A stretch of DNA of 64,000 bases from Bacteroidales bacterium. Its GTDB lineage: Bacteria > Bacteroidota > Bacteroidia > Bacteroidales > GCA-2748055. Both the position numbers and the translations under genes were made by a program. The notes under the pieces are model-generated. The model was not told the origin of the DNA, searched no databases, and was given only the letters and a program-made list of their open reading frames with translations. Of this stretch, positions 9,946 to 63,444 are shown one piece after another. The DNA lies in NCBI GenBank assembly GCA_040903745.1, contig JBBDUV010000047.1, positions 72,977-136,976 of the forward strand. Direction: 5' to 3'. Within the stretch, counting starts at the first letter, position 1; each line of letters starts with the position of its first letter.

Positions 9946-10014
9946 GCTTGAACTTTCAACACACTTATCTTTCTCCCGGTCTATCTTTCCAATTACATGT
10001 TTGCTTGCTTGCAT

Positions 10015-10054
10015 ACCTATCTACCTATCTACCTATCTACCTATCTGCCTATCT
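10015..10054. repeat. Octanucleotide microsatellite (ACCTATCT x4 plus one degenerate copy)
   Basis: Tandem 8-mers read directly between the convergent sigma and CHAT genes. Confidence 0.9.
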
Positions 10055-10064
10055 GCCTAATTAT

Positions 10065-14552: not shown

Positions 14553-15410
14553 ATGATCAGAGAGAGATTTTATTCTGGAATGGAAATGGATCCGACATAT
14601 GAGGAGTTGCTATCTGACAACAGGAAACTGAAGCAGAAGCTGGAGTGGCTGGAAGGTGTTTATCATAGTCACAGAGATGCCGGAGAACAAGTGAAGGAGA
14701 AATTCCTGTCCAATATGTCTCACGAGATCAGGACACCAATGAATTCAATTCTGGGATTTGCAAATCTCCTGAACGATAACCAGCTAACAGAGAATGAGAG
14801 GGATGAATACTTATATTATATCACACACAGTAGCCGGACGCTCTTAAAAGTATTGGATAATATGATCGATCTGACCTTACTGGAGACCAAAGGTCTTAAA
14901 ATGAGGCGGGAGGAGATCTATGCAGAGGACCTGTTTAAAGAGATCTATGAGTTTTTTAATTCAAGGGTGGCTCGAACGATGCACTATCGGATAGCATTGT
15001 TAATGACAATCCCAACACAGTATGGAAGGATCACATTGGAGGCCGATGGATACAGGTTAAAACGAATTATTGAAAACTTGATTAGCAGCGCGTTCAATCA
15101 TCAGATCAAGGGTGTGATTGAAATGAGGATGGATGTAAAAGATGAGAATAGAATCGTCTTTACCGTGATAAGTAGTAAAAATGAGTTGCTCGAAGAACGG
15201 GCAAAAATGATCTTTGAAAATAATGGTAGTACGGATGACTGGCATAACCAGCTAGACTCCACGGGCCTTTCTTATAAATTGGCACGTGATTTGGCTCATG
15301 CCATGGGAGGCTCTGTCAGTCTGAAAAAGGTGAGTGAAAAGAGAATGGGAATATCAGTCGATCTGCCAATAAAGCGTATCGGCTATATTAAAAAAAAAAG
15401 AGTCGCCTGA
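14553..15410 (+). CDS. Soluble histidine kinase-like protein with a degenerate ATP-binding domain
   Basis: The H-box SNMSHEIRTPMNSILGF is intact. There is no TM segment. G1 (DxGxG) is absent and G2 is degenerate (DSTGLSYKL). Confidence 0.7.
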   Translation: MIRERFYSGMEMDPTYEELLSDNRKLKQKLEWLEGVYHSHRDAGEQVKEKFLSNMSHEIRTPMNSILGFANLLNDNQLTENERDEYLYYITHSSRTLLKVLDNMIDLTLLETKGLKMRREEIYAEDLFKEIYEFFNSRVARTMHYRIALLMTIPTQYGRITLEADGYRLKRIIENLISSAFNHQIKGVIEMRMDVKDENRIVFTVISSKNELLEERAKMIFENNGSTDDWHNQLDSTGLSYKLARDLAHAMGGSVSLKKVSEKRMGISVDLPIKRIGYIKKKRVA

Positions 15411-32792: not shown

Positions 32793-34886
32793 ATGAAACG
32801 TATTTTATTTGCTTCAGCTATTTTGGTGGCAATGCTCTTGCTGAACGCGTGCAACAGCGGTAGCGGGGAGCGTGAACAGCAGCCGGATTTTTCAGGAATG
32901 TTAACGGAGGATGAGATCGGAGGTGGGGTGATGACCCCGGAAATACTCTGGAAATTTGGCAGGGTCGGTGAGCAAAAGCTATCCCCCGATGGAAAAGTGG
33001 TCGTGTATACCGTGACACGGTATGATGCGGAGACGCATGAGCGGGTTACCGATATCTATACAGTGACCGCGGCCGGGACCGACCTGATGAAACTGACCGG
33101 TAGCGATGGATCGCATTTTAATCCGCGCTGGAAGCCCGGGTCGAACCTGATCGGGTATTTGTCAGCCGCGTCGGGTGATGTGCAGCTCTGGGAGATGGAT
33201 ATCAACGGCGCTGGGAAACGGCAGGTGTCGGAAGTGGAAGGGGGGATCGGCGGTTTTGAGTATTCGCCGGATGGCTCGAAGGTACTCTACCTGAAGGAGG
33301 TGAAGTATAGAAAGACGTCCGCTGAGAAGTACCCCGATCTGCCAAGGGCCAATATAAGAATCATCGACGAGCTGATGTACCGGCACTGGGACCACTGGGA
33401 GGATGAATATGTGTCGCATATTTTTGTGGCTGAGTTGGATGGAGGCGGACTGAAGGGGCATGTCGATATCATGGAGGGTGAGCCCTATGAGGCGCCGCTG
33501 TCGCCATCGTTCGACCAGGAGGAGATCACGTGGAACGCCGACGGAAGCAAGGTTGCCTATTCCTGTAAAAAAATGAGCCGCAATGAGTATGCGGTGAGCA
33601 CCGATGCCGATATCTATCTGTATGACCTGGCGACGGGGAGCACGAAGAACCTTACGGAGGGGAATTTGGGGTATGACAAGTATCCGGCATTTTCACCCGA
33701 TGGGAAGTATATGGCATGGCAGAGCATGGAGACGCCTGGTTTTGAGGCGGACAAGGAGCGGCTGATGCTGATGGAGCTGGCGACGGGCGAGGTGAACTAC
33801 CTGACTGAAGGCTTTAACCAGAATGCGGCGCATTTTATGTGGTCGGACGATAGCAGGAGGATCTGGTTCATCACGGGACATCATGCGACATACCAGATTG
33901 CTGTGATTGATATAGCGTCGCGTGAGATCGTGACGGTGACCGACGGGGTGCATAATTACACGTCATTCGACCTGGCTGGTGGTGTGATGACCGGGGCGAA
34001 GATGTCGATGCGGATGGCCACGGAGCTGTTCAGGGTTGACACGGAGACAGGGGAGGAGCTGCAGATTAGCTTTGTAAACAATCATATTTACGAACATATT
34101 GAGATGGCAGAGGTGCGGTCGCGCTGGGTGCCGACGACCGACGACAAAGAGATGCTGGTTTGGGAGATCCTTCCTCCGGGATTTGATGAAACGAAGGAGT
34201 ACCCTGCTGTGCTTTATTGTCAGGGCGGTCCGCAAAGCGCCGTGAGCCAGTTCTTCTCCTACCGCTGGAACTTCCAGATGATGGCTGCCGGCGGGTATGT
34301 GATCGTGGCACCGAACAGGCGGGGACTTCCGACTTTTGGTCAGGAGTGGAACGACCAGATCTCTGGTGATTACGGCGGACAGAACATGCGCGATTATCTG
34401 ACGGCGATCGATGTAATGGCAGAGGAGCCCTATGTTGACAGTGACCGGTTGGGTGCGATCGGTGCCAGCTATGGTGGTTACTCGGTCTTTTACCTGGCAG
34501 GTATTCATGAGGGACGGTTCAAGGCGTTTATTTCGCATTGCGGGATATTTAATACCGAAAGCATGTATACCGAGACCGAAGAGATGTTTTTTGTGCACCA
34601 CGATAACGGAGGTGCCTACTGGGATGTACCGAAGCCGCGGAATTATTTGTTTTCGCCGCACCTGAAGGTGGCGAATTGGGATACTCCTATATTGGTCATC
34701 ACGGGTGAGTATGATTTCCGGATCCCCTACACGCAGAGCATGCAGGCGTTCAATGCAGCGCAGTTGCTTGGCGTGCCGAGCCGGTTGCTGGTGTTTTCCG
34801 ATGAGACCCACTTCGTGCTGAAACCGCAGAACGCGATTTTGTGGCAGCGGGAATTCAGGGGCTGGCTGGATGAATATCTGAAATAA
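32793..34886 (+). CDS. S9 family serine peptidase (prolyl oligopeptidase/acylaminoacyl peptidase-like) lipoprotein
   Basis: The lipoprotein signal is MKRILFASAILVAMLLLNAC. An N-terminal beta-propeller part precedes the catalytic GASYGGY (GxSxGG), a distal D (TGEYDFR) and H (DETHF). Confidence 0.85.
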   Translation: MKRILFASAILVAMLLLNACNSGSGEREQQPDFSGMLTEDEIGGGVMTPEILWKFGRVGEQKLSPDGKVVVYTVTRYDAETHERVTDIYTVTAAGTDLMKLTGSDGSHFNPRWKPGSNLIGYLSAASGDVQLWEMDINGAGKRQVSEVEGGIGGFEYSPDGSKVLYLKEVKYRKTSAEKYPDLPRANIRIIDELMYRHWDHWEDEYVSHIFVAELDGGGLKGHVDIMEGEPYEAPLSPSFDQEEITWNADGSKVAYSCKKMSRNEYAVSTDADIYLYDLATGSTKNLTEGNLGYDKYPAFSPDGKYMAWQSMETPGFEADKERLMLMELATGEVNYLTEGFNQNAAHFMWSDDSRRIWFITGHHATYQIAVIDIASREIVTVTDGVHNYTSFDLAGGVMTGAKMSMRMATELFRVDTETGEELQISFVNNHIYEHIEMAEVRSRWVPTTDDKEMLVWEILPPGFDETKEYPAVLYCQGGPQSAVSQFFSYRWNFQMMAAGGYVIVAPNRRGLPTFGQEWNDQISGDYGGQNMRDYLTAIDVMAEEPYVDSDRLGAIGASYGGYSVFYLAGIHEGRFKAFISHCGIFNTESMYTETEEMFFVHHDNGGAYWDVPKPRNYLFSPHLKVANWDTPILVITGEYDFRIPYTQSMQAFNAAQLLGVPSRLLVFSDETHFVLKPQNAILWQREFRGWLDEYLK

Positions 34887-34888
34887 TT

Positions 34889-34956
34889 GGGGTTTCATGT
34901 CTGTAGAACATGCAGCCCACATGAAACCCCAAGCTCCGTTAGGCGACATGTCTGTA
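34889..34956. repeat. REP-like element, family A, forming a terminator-like hairpin
   Basis: A perfect 11-bp stem (GGGGTTTCATG / CATGAAACCCC) starts 3 nt after the peptidase stop. It is followed by AGCTCCGTTAGGCGACATGTCTGTA. The same composite unit occurs at 27905-27966. Confidence 0.8.
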
Positions 34957-34970
34957 ACGGGGAAAAATGA

Positions 34971-35111
34971 TCAGATAAAGTCTTTTTTGTCGAGCAAGTC
35001 CTGCAGGGTGGTTGATTCAAGGTGTTGGGTGACCTGCCTGTTGAGGGTGCCCCAGAACCCCCGGGCTTCGCATCCCACTCCGCCGCCACATGATTGAAAA
35101 AAATTCTCTAT
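34971..35111 (-). pseudogene. Rrf2-family regulator remnant (last ~46 codons only)
   Basis: The translation ...ENFFQSCGGGVGCEARGFWGTLNRQVTQHLESTTLQDLLDKKDFI aligns with the C-terminus of the intact Rrf2 protein at 41857-42270. Nothing upstream of that point resembles Rrf2. Confidence 0.6.
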
Positions 35112-35248
35112 CTTTATTCTAAATGGAGCAGTGATTGGCAACGCCTCATACACTGCCCCGTTGGCAACAAGTGTAAAAAGACAGACAACGCACAGATACG
35201 ATAACGATACAATTAATTAAAAATTTCAGCGCATTGAATAATTTTGCA

Positions 35249-35256
35249 TACTTTTG
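35249..35256 (+). promoter_or_regulatory. Candidate -7 promoter box (TACTTTTG) for the GntR gene
   Basis: Exact TAnnTTTG match 21 nt upstream of the ATG at 35277. Confidence 0.35.
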
Positions 35257-35264
35257 TATCGTAT

Positions 35265-35276
35265 ATCGTATACGAT
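35265..35276. promoter_or_regulatory. Perfect 12-bp palindrome ATCGTATACGAT (GntR-type operator candidate)
   Basis: The palindrome has a GT-N2-AC core. It lies between the -7 box and the start codon. Related CGATA half-sites lie at about 35188-35205. Confidence 0.35.
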
Positions 35277-35903
35277 ATGAAGTTTAAAAAAGAAAATTAC
35301 AGAGACCAAATTCGAGAAATCATTATTGATTTAATTTTAAAAGAGCAATTGGCATTTGGAGAAAAACTTTCATTGGCAGAGTATGCCAGAACTCTTGGCA
35401 CAAGTGTGACGCCTATCCGTGAAGCTTTTATACAATTAGAAATAGCCGGAGTCCTTGAATCAATACCCAATGTTGGATTTTGTGTGAAATCCATTTCCCA
35501 CACAGAAGCTGAAGAAATTTATACTTTAATTGGTATGATAGAAGAAAATGCTCTTTCTTCTAATTATTCAACTAAAACTATACGTAATTTAATGAAAATT
35601 GATGAAAAGATTAAAAATAGCAATTCGGTGCAAGAAAAACTATTTGCTGACAATGAGTTTCATAAATTACTTATTGATACAAAAAAGTATCACCATTCTG
35701 TTTCATTACTTAAGAATTTAAAGTCTTTGGTATTTTTATACGAACTTAAGTTCATGAAAAACAGAGATTCCAACATTAAAAGGGACGAAGATCATTACAA
35801 CATAGTAGAATTTATTCAAAAAGGGGAATCAATTACTGAACTAATAAAACTGCATTGGAAAAATAGTTATCAGTTTGTAATAAATCAAACTAAAATAAAA
35901 TGA
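35277..35903 (+). CDS. GntR family transcriptional regulator (FadR/FCD-like)
   Basis: The winged-helix motif reads GEKLSLAEYARTLGTSVTPIREAFIQLEIAGVLESIPNVGFCV. The C-terminal domain is helical. Confidence 0.75.
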   Translation: MKFKKENYRDQIREIIIDLILKEQLAFGEKLSLAEYARTLGTSVTPIREAFIQLEIAGVLESIPNVGFCVKSISHTEAEEIYTLIGMIEENALSSNYSTKTIRNLMKIDEKIKNSNSVQEKLFADNEFHKLLIDTKKYHHSVSLLKNLKSLVFLYELKFMKNRDSNIKRDEDHYNIVEFIQKGESITELIKLHWKNSYQFVINQTKIK

Positions 35904-35910
35904 GAAAATT

Positions 35911-38900
35911 ATGTTTATGAAAAAATCAGGCATAATATCCCGGTTGTCAGAACTTATTAATAGAATATCAAGTTCATTTATAGATCTGACAATAAACAAA
36001 AAACTGATTTATGGATTTGGTTTTGTTATTGTGTTAGGATTAATAACCTCAACTGTTCACTGGTTCATGCTCGATTTGCAATCAAAGAGTTATTCGTTAT
36101 CCAAAAATGCCGGAAAAATAACAGCTGACTTAAGGTTGCTAAGACAAGATGAAAAAAACTTCATGTTACGCGATGATCCAAAATATGCAAAACTGGTTAA
36201 ATCTGCATTGAATCAATTGCATAAAGTAGCCGAACAGCTTGATAATAAGGCATATAACGTGGGGGGGGGGGTATCTATTACAACCATTTTAGAAGACCTG
36301 AAAGCTTATGAAAAGAATTTTGACGATTACCTGACACTAAACAATAGAAAGCGGGCTGCCCTTGAGGAAATGATTAAACAAGGGCGGGATGTAGAGGAAT
36401 TATCTGACCAAATACGAGCCGACCAAAAGAAAGAATTACAGCAACTCGAAAAAGTTGCCATGTCGGCTGTTGATCAGATGCGCGACAAACGTGTGAAAGC
36501 CGATGATGCCAACCGCATGATAAAGTTGATGGACGAGGCCAGGCAGGAGGAGAAAAACTTTCTTTTACGCAAGAATGAAAATGATGCCAATTTGACCTTG
36601 ATGCTGGTCAATGATCTTATTGCACAGGCAAAAATAACCCACAATCGTTTTGATGATCCCCAGAACCAGGCCATGGCTAAAGCAATCATTTCTGCATCTG
36701 AAAAATATATAGCAGAATTCAAAGATGTCATTGAGTTGGAGGGTAACCAGCGGGAAGGCAGCATACTGATGAACCAAAAGATACAATTGGCCTTAGATGA
36801 AATGGTTAGACAAGGGCGGGATGTAGAGGAGTTATCCGATCAGATACGGGCGGATCAGAAAAAGGAATTGCTGCTACTTGAAGAAAGCTCAAGACCGGAT
36901 ATTACTGAGATGCGCGACAAACGTGTGAAAGCCGATGATGCCAACCGCATGATAAAGCTGATGGACGAGGCCAGGTCGCAGGAAAAAAACTTTCTTTTAC
37001 GCAATGATGAAGATGATGCCGATTTGACCTTGAAACTGGTCAGTGATCTTATTGAACAGGCTAAAACAACCCGCAATCGTTTTGGAGATCGTCAGAACCA
37101 AGCCATGGCTGATGCGATAATCACTGCAGCACAGCAATATAAAGACCAGTTTGTAAATGTCATTAAACTGGTAAAAGAACAGCAGCGGATCAGCATACAA
37201 ATGGACTCTAGAAAACAAGCTGCCCTTGAGGAAATGATTAAACAAGGGCGGGATGTAGAGGAATTATCTGACCAAATACGAGCCGACCAAAAGAAAGAAT
37301 TACAGCAACTCGAAAAAGTTGCCATGTCGGCTGTTGATCAGATGCGCGACAAACGTGTGAAAGCCGATGATGCCAACCGCATGATAAAGTTGATGGACGA
37401 GGCCAGGCAGGAGGAGAAAAACTTTCTTTTACGCAAGAATGAAAATGATGCCAATTTGACCTTGATGCTGGTCAATGATCTTATTGCACAGGCAAAAATA
37501 ACCCACAATCGTTTTGATGATCCCCAGAACCAGGCCATGGCTAAAGCAATCATTTCTGCATCTGAAAAATATATAGCAGAATTCAAAGATGTCATTGAGT
37601 TGGAGGGTAACCAGCGGGAAGGCAGCATACTGATGAACCAAAAGATACAATTGGCCTTAGATGAAATGGTTAGACAAGGGCGGGATGTAGAGGAGTTATC
37701 CGATCAGATACGGGCGGATCAGAAAAAGGAATTGCTGCTACTTGAAGAAAGCTCAAGACCGGATATTACTGAGATGCGCGACAAACGTGTGAAAGCCGAT
37801 GATGCCAACCGCATGATAAAGCTGATGGACGAGGCCAGGTCGCAGGAAAAAAACTTTCTTTTAAGACAAAATACCGAAGATGCTGAATTGACACTCGAGT
37901 TAGTCGACAGTCTTATTGCTCAAGCTTATATCACCAAAAAACGTTTTAACGACCTCCAGAACCAAACCATGGCTCAAACAATCGTTGCTGCATCTGAAAA
38001 ATATACAGAGGAATTCAGGAATGTGATTGAAATTGTTAACAAACAACATTCTGCTGCAGAATTAATGATTGCAAAAGCCCGCGAAGTAGAGAAAACAGCC
38101 CAAAAAGTAGAGAAAATACAGGACATGGCGATGAACACAAGTGTTATTACTGCTCGTTTGGTAAGTGCATTTGCCGAAATTTTTAAAATAATAATTTTAA
38201 TATTACTGGCTTGGGTTTTAATGCGTGTTATATCTGATCCTGTTCTTAAGTTAAGCAATATCATGAGCAACCTTTCTAAGGACGATACTAATGTAAACAT
38301 ACCTGAACAGGAGCGGGGCGATGAAATAGGTGTGATGGGCAAAGCAATTCAGATTTTAAAAGAACGGGTAATCGAACGCAACCGCTTCCAGAAAGAGATA
38401 ATTATGGCCAGGGATGAGGCTGAACGCACAAATCTGGAGCTTAAGACAGTCAATGAGGAACTGGAAGCTTTCGCGTACTCGGTCTCTCACGACCTTCGGG
38501 CCCCGCTGAGGGCAATCAACGGTTTCACGAGAATCATATTGAAAAAATATGAAGATACCATGGATGAAGAGGGAAAACGCCAGGCCAATGTAATCATGGA
38601 AAACGCCTTAAAAATGAGCCAGCTAATAGATGACCTCCTAGGCTTTTCACGCCTGGGTCGTAAATCCATGAATTTTTCTCGAATTGATATGAAAAAAATG
38701 GCAAATGACATTATTTCAGAATTGAAAAAAGAAAATAAAGGAAGAAACATATCTTTTACCGTGGCGGATTTGCCAACTATAAACGCTGATTCTCAGTTGT
38801 TGCATCAGGTATGGTTAAACCTTGTTTCAAATGCATTCAAATTTACTTCTCACCTCAAAAAAGCAGAGATATCAATTGGTTATCAGGAAAATAAAAAGAA

Positions 38901-39120
38901 ACCTACCTTTTTTATCAAGGATAATGGTGCAGGTTTTGATATGCAATATGCCGACAAATTATTCGGTGTGTTTCAACGGCTTCACAGCGATAAAGAGTTT
39001 CAAGGTACAGGTGTGGGTTTGGCTTTGGTGCAGCGCATTGTTCACCGTCATGGAGGCAAAGTCTGGGCAGAAGGAGAAGTAGGCAAGGGTGCAACTTTTT
39101 ATTTTTCGATGCCAAAATAA
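35911..39120 (+). CDS. Sensor histidine kinase with a ~690-aa periplasmic region made of five helical repeats (TM - 5 modules - TM - HAMP - HisKA - HATPase)
   Basis: TM1 is LIYGFGFVIVLGLITSTVHWFML. Five E-K-N-F-(L/M)-L-R motifs occur at a 144-aa period. TM2 lies near aa 748-774. A HAMP-like linker follows. The H-box is SVSHDLRAPLRAINGF, and the other motifs are NAFKFT, DNGAGFD and GTGVGLAL. Confidence 0.85.
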   Translation: MFMKKSGIISRLSELINRISSSFIDLTINKKLIYGFGFVIVLGLITSTVHWFMLDLQSKSYSLSKNAGKITADLRLLRQDEKNFMLRDDPKYAKLVKSALNQLHKVAEQLDNKAYNVGGGVSITTILEDLKAYEKNFDDYLTLNNRKRAALEEMIKQGRDVEELSDQIRADQKKELQQLEKVAMSAVDQMRDKRVKADDANRMIKLMDEARQEEKNFLLRKNENDANLTLMLVNDLIAQAKITHNRFDDPQNQAMAKAIISASEKYIAEFKDVIELEGNQREGSILMNQKIQLALDEMVRQGRDVEELSDQIRADQKKELLLLEESSRPDITEMRDKRVKADDANRMIKLMDEARSQEKNFLLRNDEDDADLTLKLVSDLIEQAKTTRNRFGDRQNQAMADAIITAAQQYKDQFVNVIKLVKEQQRISIQMDSRKQAALEEMIKQGRDVEELSDQIRADQKKELQQLEKVAMSAVDQMRDKRVKADDANRMIKLMDEARQEEKNFLLRKNENDANLTLMLVNDLIAQAKITHNRFDDPQNQAMAKAIISASEKYIAEFKDVIELEGNQREGSILMNQKIQLALDEMVRQGRDVEELSDQIRADQKKELLLLEESSRPDITEMRDKRVKADDANRMIKLMDEARSQEKNFLLRQNTEDAELTLELVDSLIAQAYITKKRFNDLQNQTMAQTIVAASEKYTEEFRNVIEIVNKQHSAAELMIAKAREVEKTAQKVEKIQDMAMNTSVITARLVSAFAEIFKIIILILLAWVLMRVISDPVLKLSNIMSNLSKDDTNVNIPEQERGDEIGVMGKAIQILKERVIERNRFQKEIIMARDEAERTNLELKTVNEELEAFAYSVSHDLRAPLRAINGFTRIILKKYEDTMDEEGKRQANVIMENALKMSQLIDDLLGFSRLGRKSMNFSRIDMKKMANDIISELKKENKGRNISFTVADLPTINADSQLLHQVWLNLVSNAFKFTSHLKKAEISIGYQENKKKPTFFIKDNGAGFDMQYADKLFGVFQRLHSDKEFQGTGVGLALVQRIVHRHGGKVWAEGEVGKGATFYFSMPK
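36261..36271 (+). repeat. G11 homopolymer inside the sensor kinase CDS (codons ~118-122, VGGGV)
   Basis: Read directly as aacgt-G11-tatc. The tract is in frame as given. Confidence 0.95.
36355..36999 (+). repeat. 645-bp direct repeat, copy 1 (within the kinase CDS)
   Basis: Base-for-base identical by eye to 37219-37863. The offset is 864 bp, or 288 codons. Confidence 0.9.
37219..37863 (+). repeat. 645-bp direct repeat, copy 2 (within the kinase CDS)
   Basis: Identical to 36355-36999. Antisense ORFs in the supplied track also repeat exactly at +864. Confidence 0.9.
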
Positions 39121-39154
39121 TAAATATGAATATAAAACTTTAAAGAAAAATTAA

Positions 39155-39592
39155 ATGAGCTACAATCTCCTTATAATTGAAGATAACCCAAATGATGCTG
39201 AATTAATAACCATTGCATTAGGGGAAGCAAAACTGGGCAAAAAAGCGTTTATATGCGAAAATGGTGCAGAGGCGCTGGATTTTATTTTTAGCAAAGGAAA
39301 ATATGCCGGGGCAATTAATCAAATTAACCTGAAGGCCATTTTTCTTGACCTTAAAATGCCGAAGGTTAATGGTCTGGAAGTATTAAAGCAGGTTAAATCA
39401 AACAAAACCACAAAGAGAATACCAGTTATCGTTGTCACATCTTCGAGTCAGTATTCAGACATCTCTACGGCTTACGACCTTGGTGTTAACAGTTATATCG
39501 TGAAGCCTGTTGATTTTGATGAATTTCAACGGAAAATTACTGTAGTAGCATCATATTGGTTGAATGAAAATATTGAACCGATGAATCAATAA
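39155..39592 (+). CDS. Stand-alone response regulator receiver protein (CheY/Rcp1-like)
   Basis: Motifs IIEDNPNDAEL, the phospho-acceptor context IFLDLKMPKVNG, VVTSS and SYIVKP are present. There is no output domain. Confidence 0.85.
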   Translation: MSYNLLIIEDNPNDAELITIALGEAKLGKKAFICENGAEALDFIFSKGKYAGAINQINLKAIFLDLKMPKVNGLEVLKQVKSNKTTKRIPVIVVTSSSQYSDISTAYDLGVNSYIVKPVDFDEFQRKITVVASYWLNENIEPMNQ

Positions 39593-39623
39593 TCAATATT
39601 TCATCAAACAAAATAACAAGGTT

Positions 39624-41555
39624 ATGGAAGAAACATTACGCGTATTAATTCTTGAAGACAATCCGGCAGATGCAGAACTTGCAAACGAAGAATTGAAGGA
39701 AACGCTGAATAAATACACGGTAAAGGTAGTTGACACGAAAAATGATTTTATTCTGGCTATGGATAATTATAAACCTGACCTTATTATTTCCGACTACCAG
39801 TTGCCTGGTTTTAACGCTTTGTCTGCTTTAAAGATTGCCCGGGAAAAATCACCATTTATTCCTTTTATTATTTATACCGGTGCTATTAAGGAAGAAGCAG
39901 CTGTTGAATGTATGAAGTCTGGTGCGGATGATTATGTTATGAAGGAAAACATGATCCGGCTTCGAACGGCAACCCTGCATGCACTGGAAAATAAAAAAAG
40001 CGAAAAGGAAAAGTATCAGAGCCTGCAATCACTTAAGAAAAGCGAAGAAAAATACCGTTTATTGATAGATAGCTCAATCGATGCCATTTACTTGTTATAT
40101 AACCGGAAATTTGAATTCATTAATAAGGCGTTTGAAAAACTATTTGGTTATACGTATGAAGAAGTGAACCAACCCGGATTCGATTTTACAGAATTGGTAG
40201 CACCGAAAAGCAGGCCTGTGATAGAAGAAAGAGCTAAAAAAATTGCCCGGGGCGAAAAGCCCGGGTCGAAATATGAATTTACAGCGGTTTCAAAAACCGG
40301 CAGGGAAATAGAAGTTGAAGTTAATGAAAGTTATATTGAGTATAATCAAGGAATTGCGACACAAGGCATAGTTCGCAATATAACCGAGCGCAAACAATAT
40401 GAAGAAGAACTGATAAAGGCAAAAGAAAAAGCGGAAGAGTCTGATAAGCTGAAAACCGCCTTTTTGCAGAATATGAGCCATGAAATACGGACACCCATGA
40501 ACGGGATACTTGGCTTTACTTCATTGCTTTTAGAGCCTGATTTAACCAGTGAGAAAAGGTTTAATTTTATCGAAATAATACAAAAATGCGGAGAACGGAT
40601 GTTGAATACCATAAATGACATTATTGAAGTTTCGAAGATAGAGGCCGGATTGGTAAGCATGAATTTGGCCCCAGTCAATGTGAATGCACGCCTTTATGAG
40701 ATAAAAGATTTTTTTACTCCTGAAGCTGAACAAAAAGGGTTACAACTGACCCTTGAAAATATATTGCCCAATGACCATCCTGATATAAGAACCGATAAAA
40801 ATAAACTAGATTCCATTTTGGCAAACCTTGTTAAGAATGCCATTAAATTTACTGACAGTGGAACAGTTAAATTAGGATGTAACTTTCAGGAGCCATTGTT
40901 GGAATTTTACGTAAAAGATACCGGTATTGGAATTCCGGCACATCGCCGTGAGGCTGTCTTTAACCGGTTTGAACAGGCTGATATTGCCGACACAAGGGCA
41001 TTTCAGGGTTCCGGTTTAGGATTGGCCATAGCAAAATCTTATATCGAAAAACTGGGAGGAAAAATATGGCTTGAATCGGAAGAAGGCAAAGGTTCAACAT
41101 TTTATTTTTCGTTGCCTGCTAAAAGCGATATGGAAGAAAAATTAATTTCTGATAAAAAAATATCCGTTCACAACGAAAATGAAAAATCCAAAGTTAAGGG
41201 TTTGAAAATTCTAATCGCCGAAGACGATGAGACATCACGAAAATATCTTTCCCTTTTGGTTAATGATTTTGGCACGGAGATTTTAGAAGCAGAAACAGGT
41301 AATAGAACCATTGAATTATGCCGACAGAATAAAGACATCGATTTAATACTTATGGATATCCGAATGCCCGGTTTGGATGGCTACGAAGCAACCCGCCGGA
41401 TAAGGGAATTTAACAAAGAGATAGTAATTATCGCACAAACCGCTATTGCACTTTCCGGCGCCAGGGAAAAGGCAATAGAGGCAGGTTGTAATGATCATAT
41501 TTCGAAACCAATTAACAAAAACGAATTACTCACAATTATTGAACAGTACGTTTGA
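39624..41555 (+). CDS. Hybrid sensor histidine kinase/response regulator (REC-PAS-HisKA-HATPase-REC)
   Basis: The N-terminal REC reads LEDNPADAEL...ISDYQLPG. A PAS-like region follows. The H-box is MSHEIRTPMNGILGF, and the other motifs are NAIKFT, DTGIGI and GSGLGLAI. The C-terminal REC reads ILMDIRMPGLDG. Confidence 0.85.
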   Translation: MEETLRVLILEDNPADAELANEELKETLNKYTVKVVDTKNDFILAMDNYKPDLIISDYQLPGFNALSALKIAREKSPFIPFIIYTGAIKEEAAVECMKSGADDYVMKENMIRLRTATLHALENKKSEKEKYQSLQSLKKSEEKYRLLIDSSIDAIYLLYNRKFEFINKAFEKLFGYTYEEVNQPGFDFTELVAPKSRPVIEERAKKIARGEKPGSKYEFTAVSKTGREIEVEVNESYIEYNQGIATQGIVRNITERKQYEEELIKAKEKAEESDKLKTAFLQNMSHEIRTPMNGILGFTSLLLEPDLTSEKRFNFIEIIQKCGERMLNTINDIIEVSKIEAGLVSMNLAPVNVNARLYEIKDFFTPEAEQKGLQLTLENILPNDHPDIRTDKNKLDSILANLVKNAIKFTDSGTVKLGCNFQEPLLEFYVKDTGIGIPAHRREAVFNRFEQADIADTRAFQGSGLGLAIAKSYIEKLGGKIWLESEEGKGSTFYFSLPAKSDMEEKLISDKKISVHNENEKSKVKGLKILIAEDDETSRKYLSLLVNDFGTEILEAETGNRTIELCRQNKDIDLILMDIRMPGLDGYEATRRIREFNKEIVIIAQTAIALSGAREKAIEAGCNDHISKPINKNELLTIIEQYV

Positions 41556-41720
41556 AAAAACTTATTTATATTGCCATCACACAGGCGTAAGCACATCCCG
41601 TAAACCGCTCAAAGCCCCGTTAAAATCAAAGTTTACGGGAAGAGCTTCCGCCTCTCCAGCCCAAGTAACCGCCTTTCAGGTCGGTTTTTAGGATTCCCCA
41701 CGCTCAAAAAAAAACAAAAT

Positions 41721-41747
41721 AAACCTGCCCGTCCGGCAGGCGGGTTT
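41721..41747. terminator. GC-rich hairpin between convergent genes (terminator candidate)
   Basis: AAACCTGCCCGTCCGGCAGGCGGGTTT, with stem CCTGCC / GGCAGG or the alternative CCCG / CGGG, is flanked by A-rich and T-rich runs. Confidence 0.4.
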
Positions 41748-41856
41748 GTGCTTTGTGGATAGGTAGGAGCAGATTGACAATGACAAGAAAATATAAGCTA
41801 AATAAATGATAAACAAACGGATATGAATGAACACCAGTTGCCAACGGGAATAATGA

Positions 41857-42270
41857 TTAGATCAGCTCATTTTTATCGAGAAAATCCTGCAGGGTGGTTG
41901 ATTCAAAAAGTTCAGTTACCTGTTTGTTGAGGATACCCCAGAACCCCCTGGCTTCGCACCCATTTTCGCGGTCGCATTTAAAATTCTCATTCATGCAGTC
42001 GATCACACAGATGCCCGGTTCGAATGCGCTGTGGATGTCGAGCACGGTTATATCTTCTGCTGGTCTTGTTAGGACATAGCCGCTTTTTTTGCCTTTTACA
42101 TTGGTGATGAGTCCGGCCACCTTCAGTGCGTGAATGATATGGTCGAGGTATTTATTGGAAAGCTCCTGAGATTTGGCTATATCTTTTTGGAACACCCCAT
42201 TATCAGGTGAATGCTTTGCGATCTCGATCATGGACCTAAGGCCATAGCGTGTACGTGTACTAAATTTCAA
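41857..42270 (-). CDS. Rrf2 family transcriptional regulator (Fe-S cluster type)
   Basis: The N-terminus reads MKFSTRTRYGLRSMIEIA and the HTH reads QKDIAKSQELSNKYLDHIIHALKVAGLI. A Cys cluster lies in the C-terminal third (CVIDC...C...C). Confidence 0.85.
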   Translation of the reverse strand: MKFSTRTRYGLRSMIEIAKHSPDNGVFQKDIAKSQELSNKYLDHIIHALKVAGLITNVKGKKSGYVLTRPAEDITVLDIHSAFEPGICVIDCMNENFKCDRENGCEARGFWGILNKQVTELFESTTLQDFLDKNELI

Positions 42271-42887
42271 AGCTGCGTCAGATTGATATCCGGTTCAACA
42301 GGTAAACTAAATTCAAAGTTAATCATTAGTTCGTCATGTACTTTAATCAGGCCAAAGGTTTTTTCCGGGGGTGACAAATTAAAATCAGTCAGCTTAAGTG
42401 TTTTGCTTCCGCTGACAGATATCCTGCTGTCCATACAACTTGAAACCTCGCAAGGGACCTGGTAATAGCGAGTGACGCCGCTTACGACGACGCCGATCTT
42501 CAATGAATAGACAGAATAGCCATTGAACAGGGTTGTAAATTCCGATTCATTCATAAAGATCTGAATGTAGGGGTATTTCTTTACGTTGATGAGCTGGAGG
42601 AAGTCCCTGTATACAAATTTGTTGGTTGCTTTGAAGTTCCTGACTGGAACCAGAATCATAAAGCCATGTTCTTCCGGAACGGGGATCCATCGTGAGTCGC
42701 CGATCCCGCAGACCAGGTCGCCCGGAACCTCCTGGTGAAGTGCGAAATCATTAATGTTGGTCTCACCGGTAATATGGATGTAATTGTTGCAACTGCTGTG
42801 GTTTGAAGAAAGTGTGGATTGACCAAGAGTCAATCCACACTTAAAGATAAACATCAATAGAATTACATGATGGATTGCACCGTGCAT
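42267..42887 (-). CDS. YceI-like domain protein (secreted); start set at the internal ATG
   Basis: The signal-like N-terminus is MHGAIHHVILLMFIFKCGLTLG. The C-terminal motif KLTDFNLSPP is paralogous to KMKDFNISPP of the YceI protein at 44651-45268. There is a 4-nt overlap with the Rrf2 start. Confidence 0.55.
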   Translation of the reverse strand: MHGAIHHVILLMFIFKCGLTLGQSTLSSNHSSCNNYIHITGETNINDFALHQEVPGDLVCGIGDSRWIPVPEEHGFMILVPVRNFKATNKFVYRDFLQLINVKKYPYIQIFMNESEFTTLFNGYSVYSLKIGVVVSGVTRYYQVPCEVSSCMDSRISVSGSKTLKLTDFNLSPPEKTFGLIKVHDELMINFEFSLPVEPDINLTQL

Positions 42888-42917
42888 CAAATATTCTTCT
42901 GCAACGCCACCGGTCGT

Positions 42918-43010
42918 ACCTTCGATATCCCGAGCAGTTGCATTTCCCGGACCGCTCCTGGCTGCACTTCCTCTTACACCTTCGATCCCCCGGACGGTTG
43001 CATTTCCTGG
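42918..43010. repeat. Two ~33-bp direct repeats, 60 bp apart
   Basis: ACCTTCGATATCCCGAGCAGTTGCATTTCCCGG (42918-42950) and ACCTTCGATCCCCCGGACGGTTGCATTTCCTGG (42978-43010). Confidence 0.8.
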
Positions 43011-52617: not shown

Positions 52618-52634
52618 AAAAAATATTTTGGAAT

Positions 52635-52686
52635 ACGGATGGATATTACGGATGGATATTACGGATGGATATTACGGATGGATATT
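52635..52686. repeat. 13-bp tandem repeat, ACGGATGGATATT x4 (perfect)
   Basis: Read directly. It lies 18 nt upstream of the candidate -7 box of the riboswitch operon. Confidence 0.95.
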
Positions 52687-63364: not shown

Positions 63365-63392
63365 ATACATACATACATACATACATACATAC
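63365..63392. repeat. (ATAC)7 tetranucleotide microsatellite
   Basis: Read directly, 53 nt upstream of the ATG at 63445. Confidence 0.95.
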
Positions 63393-63444
63393 AGACAGCA
63401 AACTGCATATTCTGACTGTGACATGCATTAATAATTGTTGTCTT

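What the first reader, a model, noticed from the sequence alone, without database searches (positions are those of the whole stretch)
36261..36271. In-frame G11 homopolymer early in the sensor kinase gene: candidate phase-variation switch
Eleven consecutive G residues encode VGGGV at about codon 118 of 1069. Loss of one G gives ...GGG TAT CTA TTA CAA CCA TTT TAG, a stop after 7 codons. Gain of one G gives a TGA stop about 13 codons downstream.

Tracts of this length are classic slipped-strand contingency switches. An 11-nt G run also stands out in this AT-rich gene. An ON/OFF switch in a sensor kinase would make the whole relay stochastic.
Basis: partly seen in the sequence, partly recalled or inferred. 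Interest (0 to 1): 0.65.

Follow-up and report, generated by a model that had tools for sequence, protein, structure and literature searches.

The report
Slippery poly-G run in sensor kinase
A run of at least eleven G's really sits early in a sensor-kinase gene of an uncultured sediment bacterium. Four assemblies of the same strain disagree on its length, so it is a credible but unproven on/off slippage switch of an already known kind.

Summary
G11 lies at 36261-36271, encodes V-G-G-G-V at codons 117-121 of a 1069-aa kinase, and is the only G/C run longer than 7 in the window.

- **Frame:** lengths 8, 11 and 14 keep the frame. Every other length stops at residues 126-134, before all signalling domains.
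- **Origin:** the tract is specific to this lineage. The nearest homologue reads N-S-E-N-K-K at that site.
- **Position in the protein:** the model places it in the turn between two long helices of the first periplasmic module, where extra glycines should be tolerated.
- **Other assemblies:** three other short-read assemblies of the same strain, with 100% identical flanks, all break inside the tract. They end in G11, G12 and G14. No public contig bridges it, and depth halves just after it.

This pattern fits real length heterogeneity. It fits the known failure of Illumina reads at long G runs equally well. Only contigs were available, not raw reads, so I could not separate the two.

Verdict: a real, almost certainly hypermutable tract and a plausible contingency switch. 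It works like bvgS of Bordetella or flgS/flgR of Campylobacter. If true it is a new member of a known kind, of modest interest.

The parts
36261..36271 (+). G11 homopolymer. It covers the last base of codon 117, codons 118-120 (GGG GGG GGG) and the first base of codon 121.
   Evidence: The same tract ends contigs with 11, 12 and 14 G's in other assemblies of the same strain.
35911..39120 (+). Sensor histidine kinase of 1069 aa. Layout: TM1, then a helical periplasmic region of about 690 aa built from repeated E-K-N-F-L-L-R modules, then TM2, HAMP, HisKA and HATPase_c. NCBI's start for the sister assembly corresponds to 35917.
36290..36292 (+). TAG stop reached when the tract has 3n+1 G's (G10, G13). 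The product is 126-127 aa.
36309..36311 (+). TGA stop reached when the tract has 3n G's (G9, G12, G15). The product is 132-134 aa.
36360..38017 (+). Tandem array of 432-nt modules (3.8 copies) encoding the sensor. It includes a perfect 645-bp duplicate (36355-36999 = 37219-37863). The order of modules differs in the sister assembly.
35277..35903 (+). GntR/FCD-family regulator, ending 8 nt upstream of the kinase.
39155..39592 (+). Stand-alone receiver protein, 34 nt downstream of the kinase.
39624..41555 (+). Hybrid kinase: REC, PAS, HisKA, HATPase_c, REC. It is the last gene of the cassette.

Best explanation
The tract is a genuine, evolutionarily young poly-G run of at least 11 G's. It lies in the turn between two long helices of the first periplasmic module of a repeat-sensor histidine kinase. 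The kinase belongs to an AT-rich four-gene signalling cassette, probably acquired horizontally, in an uncultured sediment Bacteroidales.

Shown here:
- G8, G11 and G14 give a full-length kinase with 2, 3 or 4 glycines in that turn.
- Any other length stops translation at residues 126-134, leaving only TM1 and half a sensor module.

Inferred:
- During replication the run misaligns (slipped-strand mispairing) at a rate far above the base-substitution rate.
- The population should therefore always hold a minority of OFF cells that can revert. That is de facto phase variation of the first kinase of the relay.
- Downstream REC and hybrid-kinase genes may also be reduced by polarity.

Whether selection maintains the tract as a bet-hedging switch, or whether it is a tolerated accident in a loose loop, is not decided.
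For: 1. The tract is real. At least 11 G's follow AACGT in four assemblies from at least two samples, at 21x and 10x depth.
2. Both flanks belong to one gene in one frame. Homologues align across the site with only a one-residue length difference.
3. The frame arithmetic holds.
4. The tract is lineage-specific. The Stygiobacter homologue reads AAT AGT GAA AAT AAA AAG at that site and has no G/C run of 6 or more in 12.3 kb.
5. The tract is a nucleotide-level feature. GGG is 16-20% of glycine codons, and 0.004 such runs are expected per window.
6. The AlphaFold2 model (mean pLDDT 82) places residues 115-119 in the only non-helical gap between helix 90-114 and helix 120-220. Confidence dips there to 61, so the position should tolerate glycine insertions.
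7. Assemblies of the same strain (0 mismatches in 3355 + 7027 nt of flanks) differ only at this tract and in the internal repeats. The tract is G11 plus TATC in the window, and contigs end in G11 (X2), G12 (X1) and G14 (NCBI MAG).
8. X1 and X2 contigs run through both G7 tracts but stop exactly at the tract.
9. Measured precedent: lengthening a C. jejuni tract from G8 to G11 raised mutability ten-fold (PMC3401435).
10. Sensor kinases switched by homopolymers are known: bvgS C6/C7 (PMC1891110) and flgS/flgR (PMC3930126).
Against: - No read-level count of tract lengths could be made. All holders are Logan contigs.
- Contig breaks, half depth downstream (11.1 against 21.6) and extra G's at contig ends are all expected from Illumina error. 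Per-base indel error rises about 1000-fold between homopolymer lengths 2 and 15 (PMC3334598).
- The next X1 contig starts at 36274, not inside the G run. Miscalls of the two bases after the run explain this better than pure length variants do.
- No other G/C tract of 8 or more exists in this window. Notes on two other windows of this genome mention none of 9 or more. So there is no sign of a genome-wide set of such switches.
- The organism is free-living, whereas contingency loci are classically host-associated.
Confidence: 0.5

Rival explanations
1. The tract is fixed in practice. G11 (or G14) is what essentially all cells carry, and the kinase is constitutively in frame. The tri-glycine is a neutral, recently expanded loop. 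All length disagreement between assemblies is technical: Illumina indels and post-homopolymer miscalls tangle the k-mer graph.
For: - Illumina homopolymer indel rates rise steeply with length (PMC3334598).
- Depth halves downstream, as expected if reads of one strand fail after the run.
- The X1 contig restarts at 36274, which implies a variant of base 36273 rather than a pure insertion or deletion.
- The loop position should tolerate glycines.
- No other long G/C tracts were seen.
Against: A G11 run cannot be replicated faithfully in any bacterium tested (PMC3401435, PMC1891110), so some true heterogeneity must exist. Three of three other assemblies fail at this exact base, while both G7 runs are crossed cleanly.
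Confidence: 0.33
2. The gene is decaying. The majority allele in nature is out of frame (for example G12, as at the X1 contig end), and the window's in-frame G11 is a minority path or a miscount. The kinase would then be a pseudogene in a recently acquired, dispensable cassette.
For: - The Logan X1 contig continues into a 12th G and not into T.
- The cassette has no output-domain regulator, unlike the Stygiobacter cassette, which is followed by a LytTR regulator.
- The cassette is AT-rich and sits beside a remnant of an Rrf2 regulator gene.
Against: - The rest of the 3.2-kb ORF is intact with no other lesion.
- The downstream genes are intact.
- G14 in the NCBI MAG would also be in frame.
- A contig-end base is weak evidence.
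Confidence: 0.1
3. The run is not real. It is a poly-G artefact, from dark cycles of two-colour chemistry or an error cluster that keeps the original length, written over ordinary sequence or used to join two contig ends wrongly.
For: Poly-G is a known artefact, and contigs ending in G runs are typical of it.
Against: - The same run of 11 or more G's follows the same 20-mer in four assemblies from at least two samples, at up to 21x depth.
- Both flanks are adjacent parts of one gene, in frame and collinear with homologues.
- No alternative sequence for this site turned up in any run.
Confidence: 0.04

Closest known systems
Bordetella pertussis bvgS poly-C tract (C6 ON / C7 OFF)
   Same: A G/C homopolymer lies inside the coding region of a membrane sensor kinase. 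A one-base gain truncates the kinase and silences the whole regulon, and the change is reversible (PMC1891110).
   Different: - Here the tract is much longer (11 against 6).
- It lies in the periplasmic sensor near the N-terminus.
- The organism is an uncultured free-living sediment Bacteroidales.
- No switching or phenotype has been observed.
Campylobacter jejuni flgS / flgR phase variation and the C. jejuni poly-G phasome
   Same: Two-component genes are turned off and on by slippage in homopolymers. Poly-G tracts of 8-11 have measured high switching rates, and G11 is about ten times more mutable than G8 (PMC3930126, PMC3401435).
   Different: - C. jejuni carries about 29 such tracts per genome (PMC4965091 abstract). 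Only one was seen here in 64 kb.
- From my own knowledge, C. jejuni also lacks MutS/MutL mismatch repair. Repair status is unknown here.
- The flgR tracts are A/T runs.
Helical bimodular (HBM) sensor domains, e.g. the McpS ligand-binding domain (PDB 2YFA/2YFB)
   Same: An all-helical periplasmic sensor lies between two TM helices and is followed by HAMP. Relatives carry precomputed PF16591 hits. The best fold matches of the model are the McpS chains.
   Different: - The match is weak: Pfam HBM E = 0.21, below the cut-off, and Foldseek E about 0.01 with TM 0.3-0.4.
- This protein strings four to five modules of about 144 aa into a sensor of about 690 aa, not one bimodule.

Membership tests
SSR-driven phase-variable (contingency) locus | A simple sequence repeat at or above the length at which slippage is frequent (G/C of 7-9 or more), placed in a coding region or promoter | tested here: met
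   G11 lies within codons 117-121 of the kinase.
SSR-driven phase-variable (contingency) locus | A gain or loss of one repeat unit switches the product between full-length and truncated | tested here: met
   G8, G11 and G14 give 1068-1070 aa. All other lengths from 9 to 15 stop at residues 126-134.
SSR-driven phase-variable (contingency) locus | Tract length is polymorphic within a clonal population or between near-identical strains | tested here: inconclusive
   Assemblies of one strain show G11 bridged, or contigs ending in G11, G12 and G14. These are contig ends with no raw reads behind them, so technical error is not excluded (PMC3334598).
SSR-driven phase-variable (contingency) locus | Reversible, high-frequency switching with a phenotype | not testable with these tools
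   The organism is uncultured. This needs a reporter assay or single-cell/amplicon data.
SSR-driven phase-variable (contingency) locus | The tract is conserved as a tract (variable in length, constant in place) among related strains or species | tested here: not met
   The only relatives found, at 55% identity or less, have no tract at the site. No intermediate relatives exist in the collections searched, so this test is weak.
Transmembrane HAMP-HisKA-HATPase sensor histidine kinase | HAMP, HisKA (H-box) and HATPase_c domains follow a second TM helix | tested here: met
   Pfam gives HAMP at 769-820, HisKA at 852-916 and HATPase_c at 960-1068, all above their cut-offs.
HBM (PF16591) sensor domain | A significant match to the HBM profile or fold | tested here: inconclusive
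   Pfam HBM scores E = 0.21, 11.4 bits against a cut-off of 29.8. The McpS ligand-binding domain is the top Foldseek hit but only at E about 0.01 and TM 0.32-0.38. Relatives carry PF16591.

The most novel reading that the evidence does not exclude
The poly-G run is a selected stochastic switch on the entry kinase of a horizontally acquired phosphorelay in a free-living anaerobic sediment Bacteroidales. The population would hedge between cells that can and cannot sense the unknown periplasmic signal. The in-frame states G8, G11 and G14 would additionally tune the sensor by changing the length of a helix-helix turn. This would extend homopolymer phase variation of signal transduction beyond host-adapted pathogens, and would add an in-frame 'dial' to the ON/OFF switch.
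Probability: 0.2. Interest if true: 0.55.

Novelty: new member of a known kind. Interest (0 to 1): 0.3.

Why it matters
If the switching is real, an environmental, non-pathogenic bacterium randomises the input of a whole multi-step phosphorelay by DNA slippage. Homopolymer switches in sensor kinases are so far documented mainly in host-adapted pathogens such as Bordetella and Campylobacter.

There is also a practical lesson. Long G runs are places where short-read metagenome assemblies break or miscount, so the frame of such genes in metagenome-assembled genomes should not be trusted without read-level counts.

As it stands, the finding is a reasonable candidate and not a discovery.

Tried and rejected

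**Searches that found nothing useful**
- Read-level heterogeneity: three run searches returned only Logan contigs, never raw reads. A fifth run from the same study (X5) does not hold the organism.
- Tract length in relatives:
  - An exact-flank pattern with a variable gap found nothing in the JGI metagenomes.
  - Protein-guided scans of genome contigs and metagenome contigs found only relatives at 22-31% identity.
  - Exact look-ups of P0001, of the GntR regulator from its TTG start, and of the peptidase found nothing.
- Rfam had no match in 34000-43000, so a structured-RNA explanation is out.
- The sigma-70 and terminator scans of the cassette found no more sites than shuffled sequence does.

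**Ideas rejected**
- G-quadruplex: a single G run cannot form an intramolecular quadruplex (own knowledge).
- A minus-strand gene using the run as C11: no ORF overlaps the tract.
- A wrong join of two contigs through poly-G: homologues are collinear across the site.

Full report
**1. Observation**

The window reads ...GCATATAACGT-GGGGGGGGGGG-TATCTATTAC..., with the eleven G's at 36261-36271. The ORF 35911..39120 on the + strand has 1069 codons. Codon 117 is GTG, codons 118-120 are GGG and codon 121 is GTA, so the peptide is V-G-G-G-V.

I rebuilt the gene with 8 to 15 G's:

| Tract length | Product |
|---|---|
| G8, G11, G14 | 1068, 1069, 1070 aa (full length) |
| G10, G13 | ends ...YLLQPF* at the TAG at 36290-36292 |
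| G9, G12, G15 | ends ...IYYNHFRRPESL* at the TGA at 36309-36311 |

The two stop codons were checked.

The run is the only G or C run longer than 7 in the 64 kb. From the window's own run-length decay (about 0.2-fold per added base), 0.004 runs of 11 or more are expected per window. That is roughly 0.25 per genome if the genome is 4 Mb, a size I assumed. GGG makes up 16-20% of glycine codons here, so the run is a DNA-level feature and not a by-product of a tri-glycine motif.

**2. The gene and its surroundings**

- **Kinase domains.** Pfam finds HAMP (769-820), HisKA (852-916) and HATPase_c (960-1068).
- **Sensor.** Between TM1 (about residues 31-53) and TM2 lies an all-helical region of about 690 aa. 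It is built from 432-nt tandem modules, each centred on a K-A-D-D-A-N-R-M-I-K-L-M-x-E-A-R-x-x-E-K-N-F-L-L-R motif.
- **Sensor family.** Relatives carry precomputed HBM (PF16591) hits. This protein itself scores below threshold. The best fold matches of my model are the McpS HBM ligand-binding domains, but weakly.
- **Neighbours.** The kinase follows a GntR/FCD regulator by 8 nt. A stand-alone receiver and a REC-PAS-HisKA-HATPase-REC hybrid kinase follow it.
- **Conservation of the cassette.** The kinase, REC and hybrid-kinase trio is conserved in a Stygiobacter (Ignavibacteria) contig. There the kinase is 55% identical, and a LytTR response regulator follows the trio.
- **Likely horizontal origin.**
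  - The cassette has 38% G+C against 47% for the rest of the window.
  - On its left lies a C-terminal remnant of a gene for an Rrf2-family regulator, at 34974-35108 on the minus strand. The remnant is 64% identical to the intact Rrf2 gene on the cassette's right.
  - Both points suggest acquisition by horizontal transfer.

**3. Where the tract sits in the protein**

- **Homologue alignment.** An alignment of the N-terminal region with three homologues places the GGG opposite polar residues: S-E-N-K, D-E-K-S and Q-E-N-K. The homologues are one residue shorter there.
- **Other homologues.** By eye, further homologues have L-S/P-x-x-x motifs at this site, which is typical of a turn.
- **Structure model.** An AlphaFold2 model of residues 1-290 (12-sequence alignment, mean pLDDT 82) has helices 28-87, 90-114 and 120-220. 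The only break between the last two is residues 115-119, and confidence dips there to 61.

The glycines therefore lie in a helix-helix turn. One more or one fewer glycine (G8, G14) should be tolerated. That last step is inference.

**4. Is the tract real?**

Yes.

- **The sister MAG.**
  - A second NCBI MAG of the same strain (GCA_040880565.1) has a 72-kb contig that is 100% identical to window 32917-36271 and then simply ends in a run of 14 G's.
  - Another of its contigs starts inside the repeat array and is identical to the window over the 7027 nt downstream of the repeats.
- **Logan contigs.**
  - In run X1 (SRR27977663) a 9.9-kb contig ends in G12.
  - In run X2 a 3.8-kb contig ends in G11.
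- **Conclusion.** At least 11 G's follow the same flank in four assemblies from at least two samples, at 21x and 10x depth. Both flanks are contiguous parts of one gene. A chance error cluster or a false poly-G join is therefore very unlikely.

**5. Is its length variable?**

In favour of real variability:
- The four assemblies disagree only here and in the internal repeats.
- No public contig bridges 36271 to 36274.
- In X1 the next contig (36274-36384) has half the depth of the previous one, 11.1 against 21.6.
- X1 and X2 contigs cross both G7 tracts of the window cleanly, yet both stop exactly at the tract.

Against reading this as biology:
- Logan contigs break about eight times per 20 kb in any case.
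- Illumina per-base indel error rises about 1000-fold between homopolymer lengths 2 and 15 (PMC3334598).
- Half depth downstream is what one expects if reads of one strand lose register after the run.
- The X1 contig restarts at 36274 and not inside the G run. That implies a variant of base 36273, which fits post-homopolymer miscalls better than pure length alleles.

Only contigs were served for every holder run, never raw reads.

**6. Relatives**

Apart from the same strain, the closest homologue is 55% identical. It reads AAT AGT GAA AAT AAA AAG at the site and has no G/C run of 6 or more anywhere in 12.3 kb. Exact-flank and protein-guided scans of the JGI metagenomes and of the species-representative genomes found nothing closer. 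The tract is thus young and specific to this lineage. Its conservation 'as a tract' among related strains cannot be judged.

**7. Mechanism I commit to**

A G11 run is a replication-slippage hot spot in every system where this has been measured. Lengthening a Campylobacter jejuni tract from G8 to G11 raised mutability ten-fold and shifted the mutation pattern towards deletions (PMC3401435).

The population must therefore contain OFF cells whose product is truncated at residues 126-134, lacking every signalling domain. These cells can revert. The OFF state removes the first kinase of the relay, and it may lower expression of the two downstream genes by polarity (inferred).

My estimates:

| Reading | Probability |
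|---|---|
| Real tract with biologically meaningful ON/OFF heterogeneity | about 0.5 |
| of which a selected bet-hedging device | about 0.2 |
| Effectively fixed tract plus technical noise | 0.33 |
| Gene decay with an out-of-frame majority | 0.1 |
| Artefact | 0.04 |

**8. Comparison with what is known**

Functionally this is the bvgS case: C6 ON and C7 OFF in a sensor kinase (PMC1891110). It also matches the C. jejuni flgS/flgR case (PMC3930126).

Membership in the class 'contingency locus' is met for tract length and for frame logic. It is inconclusive for polymorphism, and untestable here for reversibility and phenotype.

If true, this is a new member of a known kind. The unusual points are the free-living sediment host, the position in a periplasmic sensor loop, and the possible in-frame G8/G11/G14 states.

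**9. Limits**

- The window holds several perfect intergenic short tandem repeats. This slightly raises the prior that the genome tolerates or uses simple repeats.
- Neither this window nor the notes on two other windows of the genome show another G/C tract of 9 or more.
- Earlier notes of this scan on similar poly-G or poly-C cases in metagenome genomes reached similarly undecided verdicts. I used them only as a caution.

Noticed in passing
window 36355-37863 and L001 1-1300: The sensor's repeat array contains a perfect 645-bp duplicate (36355-36999 = 37219-37863). The sister assembly of the same strain orders the modules differently and holds about 77 nt (L001 1220-1296) that are absent from the window. 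The number and order of sensor modules is therefore unresolved, or truly polymorphic. All versions stay in frame.
   Followed up: partly
window 34974-35108 (-) and 41857-42270 (-): A remnant encoding the last ~45 residues of an Rrf2-family regulator lies left of the cassette. It is 64% identical to the C-terminus of the intact Rrf2 gene on the right (tblastn E = 3e-17). The cassette between them has 38% G+C against 47% elsewhere. This looks like an inserted island.
   Followed up: partly
L007 5001-11928: The kinase, stand-alone REC and hybrid-kinase trio is conserved in a Stygiobacter (Ignavibacteria) contig. There a LytTR response regulator and a further REC-kinase follow it. The window's cassette has no output-domain regulator and has a GntR gene in front.
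   Followed up: no
window 15390-15399: An A10 run lies within the last few codons of ORF 14553-15410 (+). It is the longest A/T homopolymer in the window, and a length change would alter only the C-terminal tail.
   Followed up: no
window 52634-52686, 10014-10059, 63365-63397: Three short tandem repeats, perfect or nearly so, appear to lie outside the long ORFs: (TACGGATGGATAT)x4.1, (TACCTATC)x5.8 and (ATAC)x8.2. They are possible length-variable sites.
   Followed up: no
window 34896-34932: In X1 and X2, extra contigs with unrelated flanks overlap this hairpin-like element. One carries an extra A after 34912, at higher summed depth (53 and 35). The element is therefore a dispersed repeat with many copies in the community or genome.
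   Followed up: no
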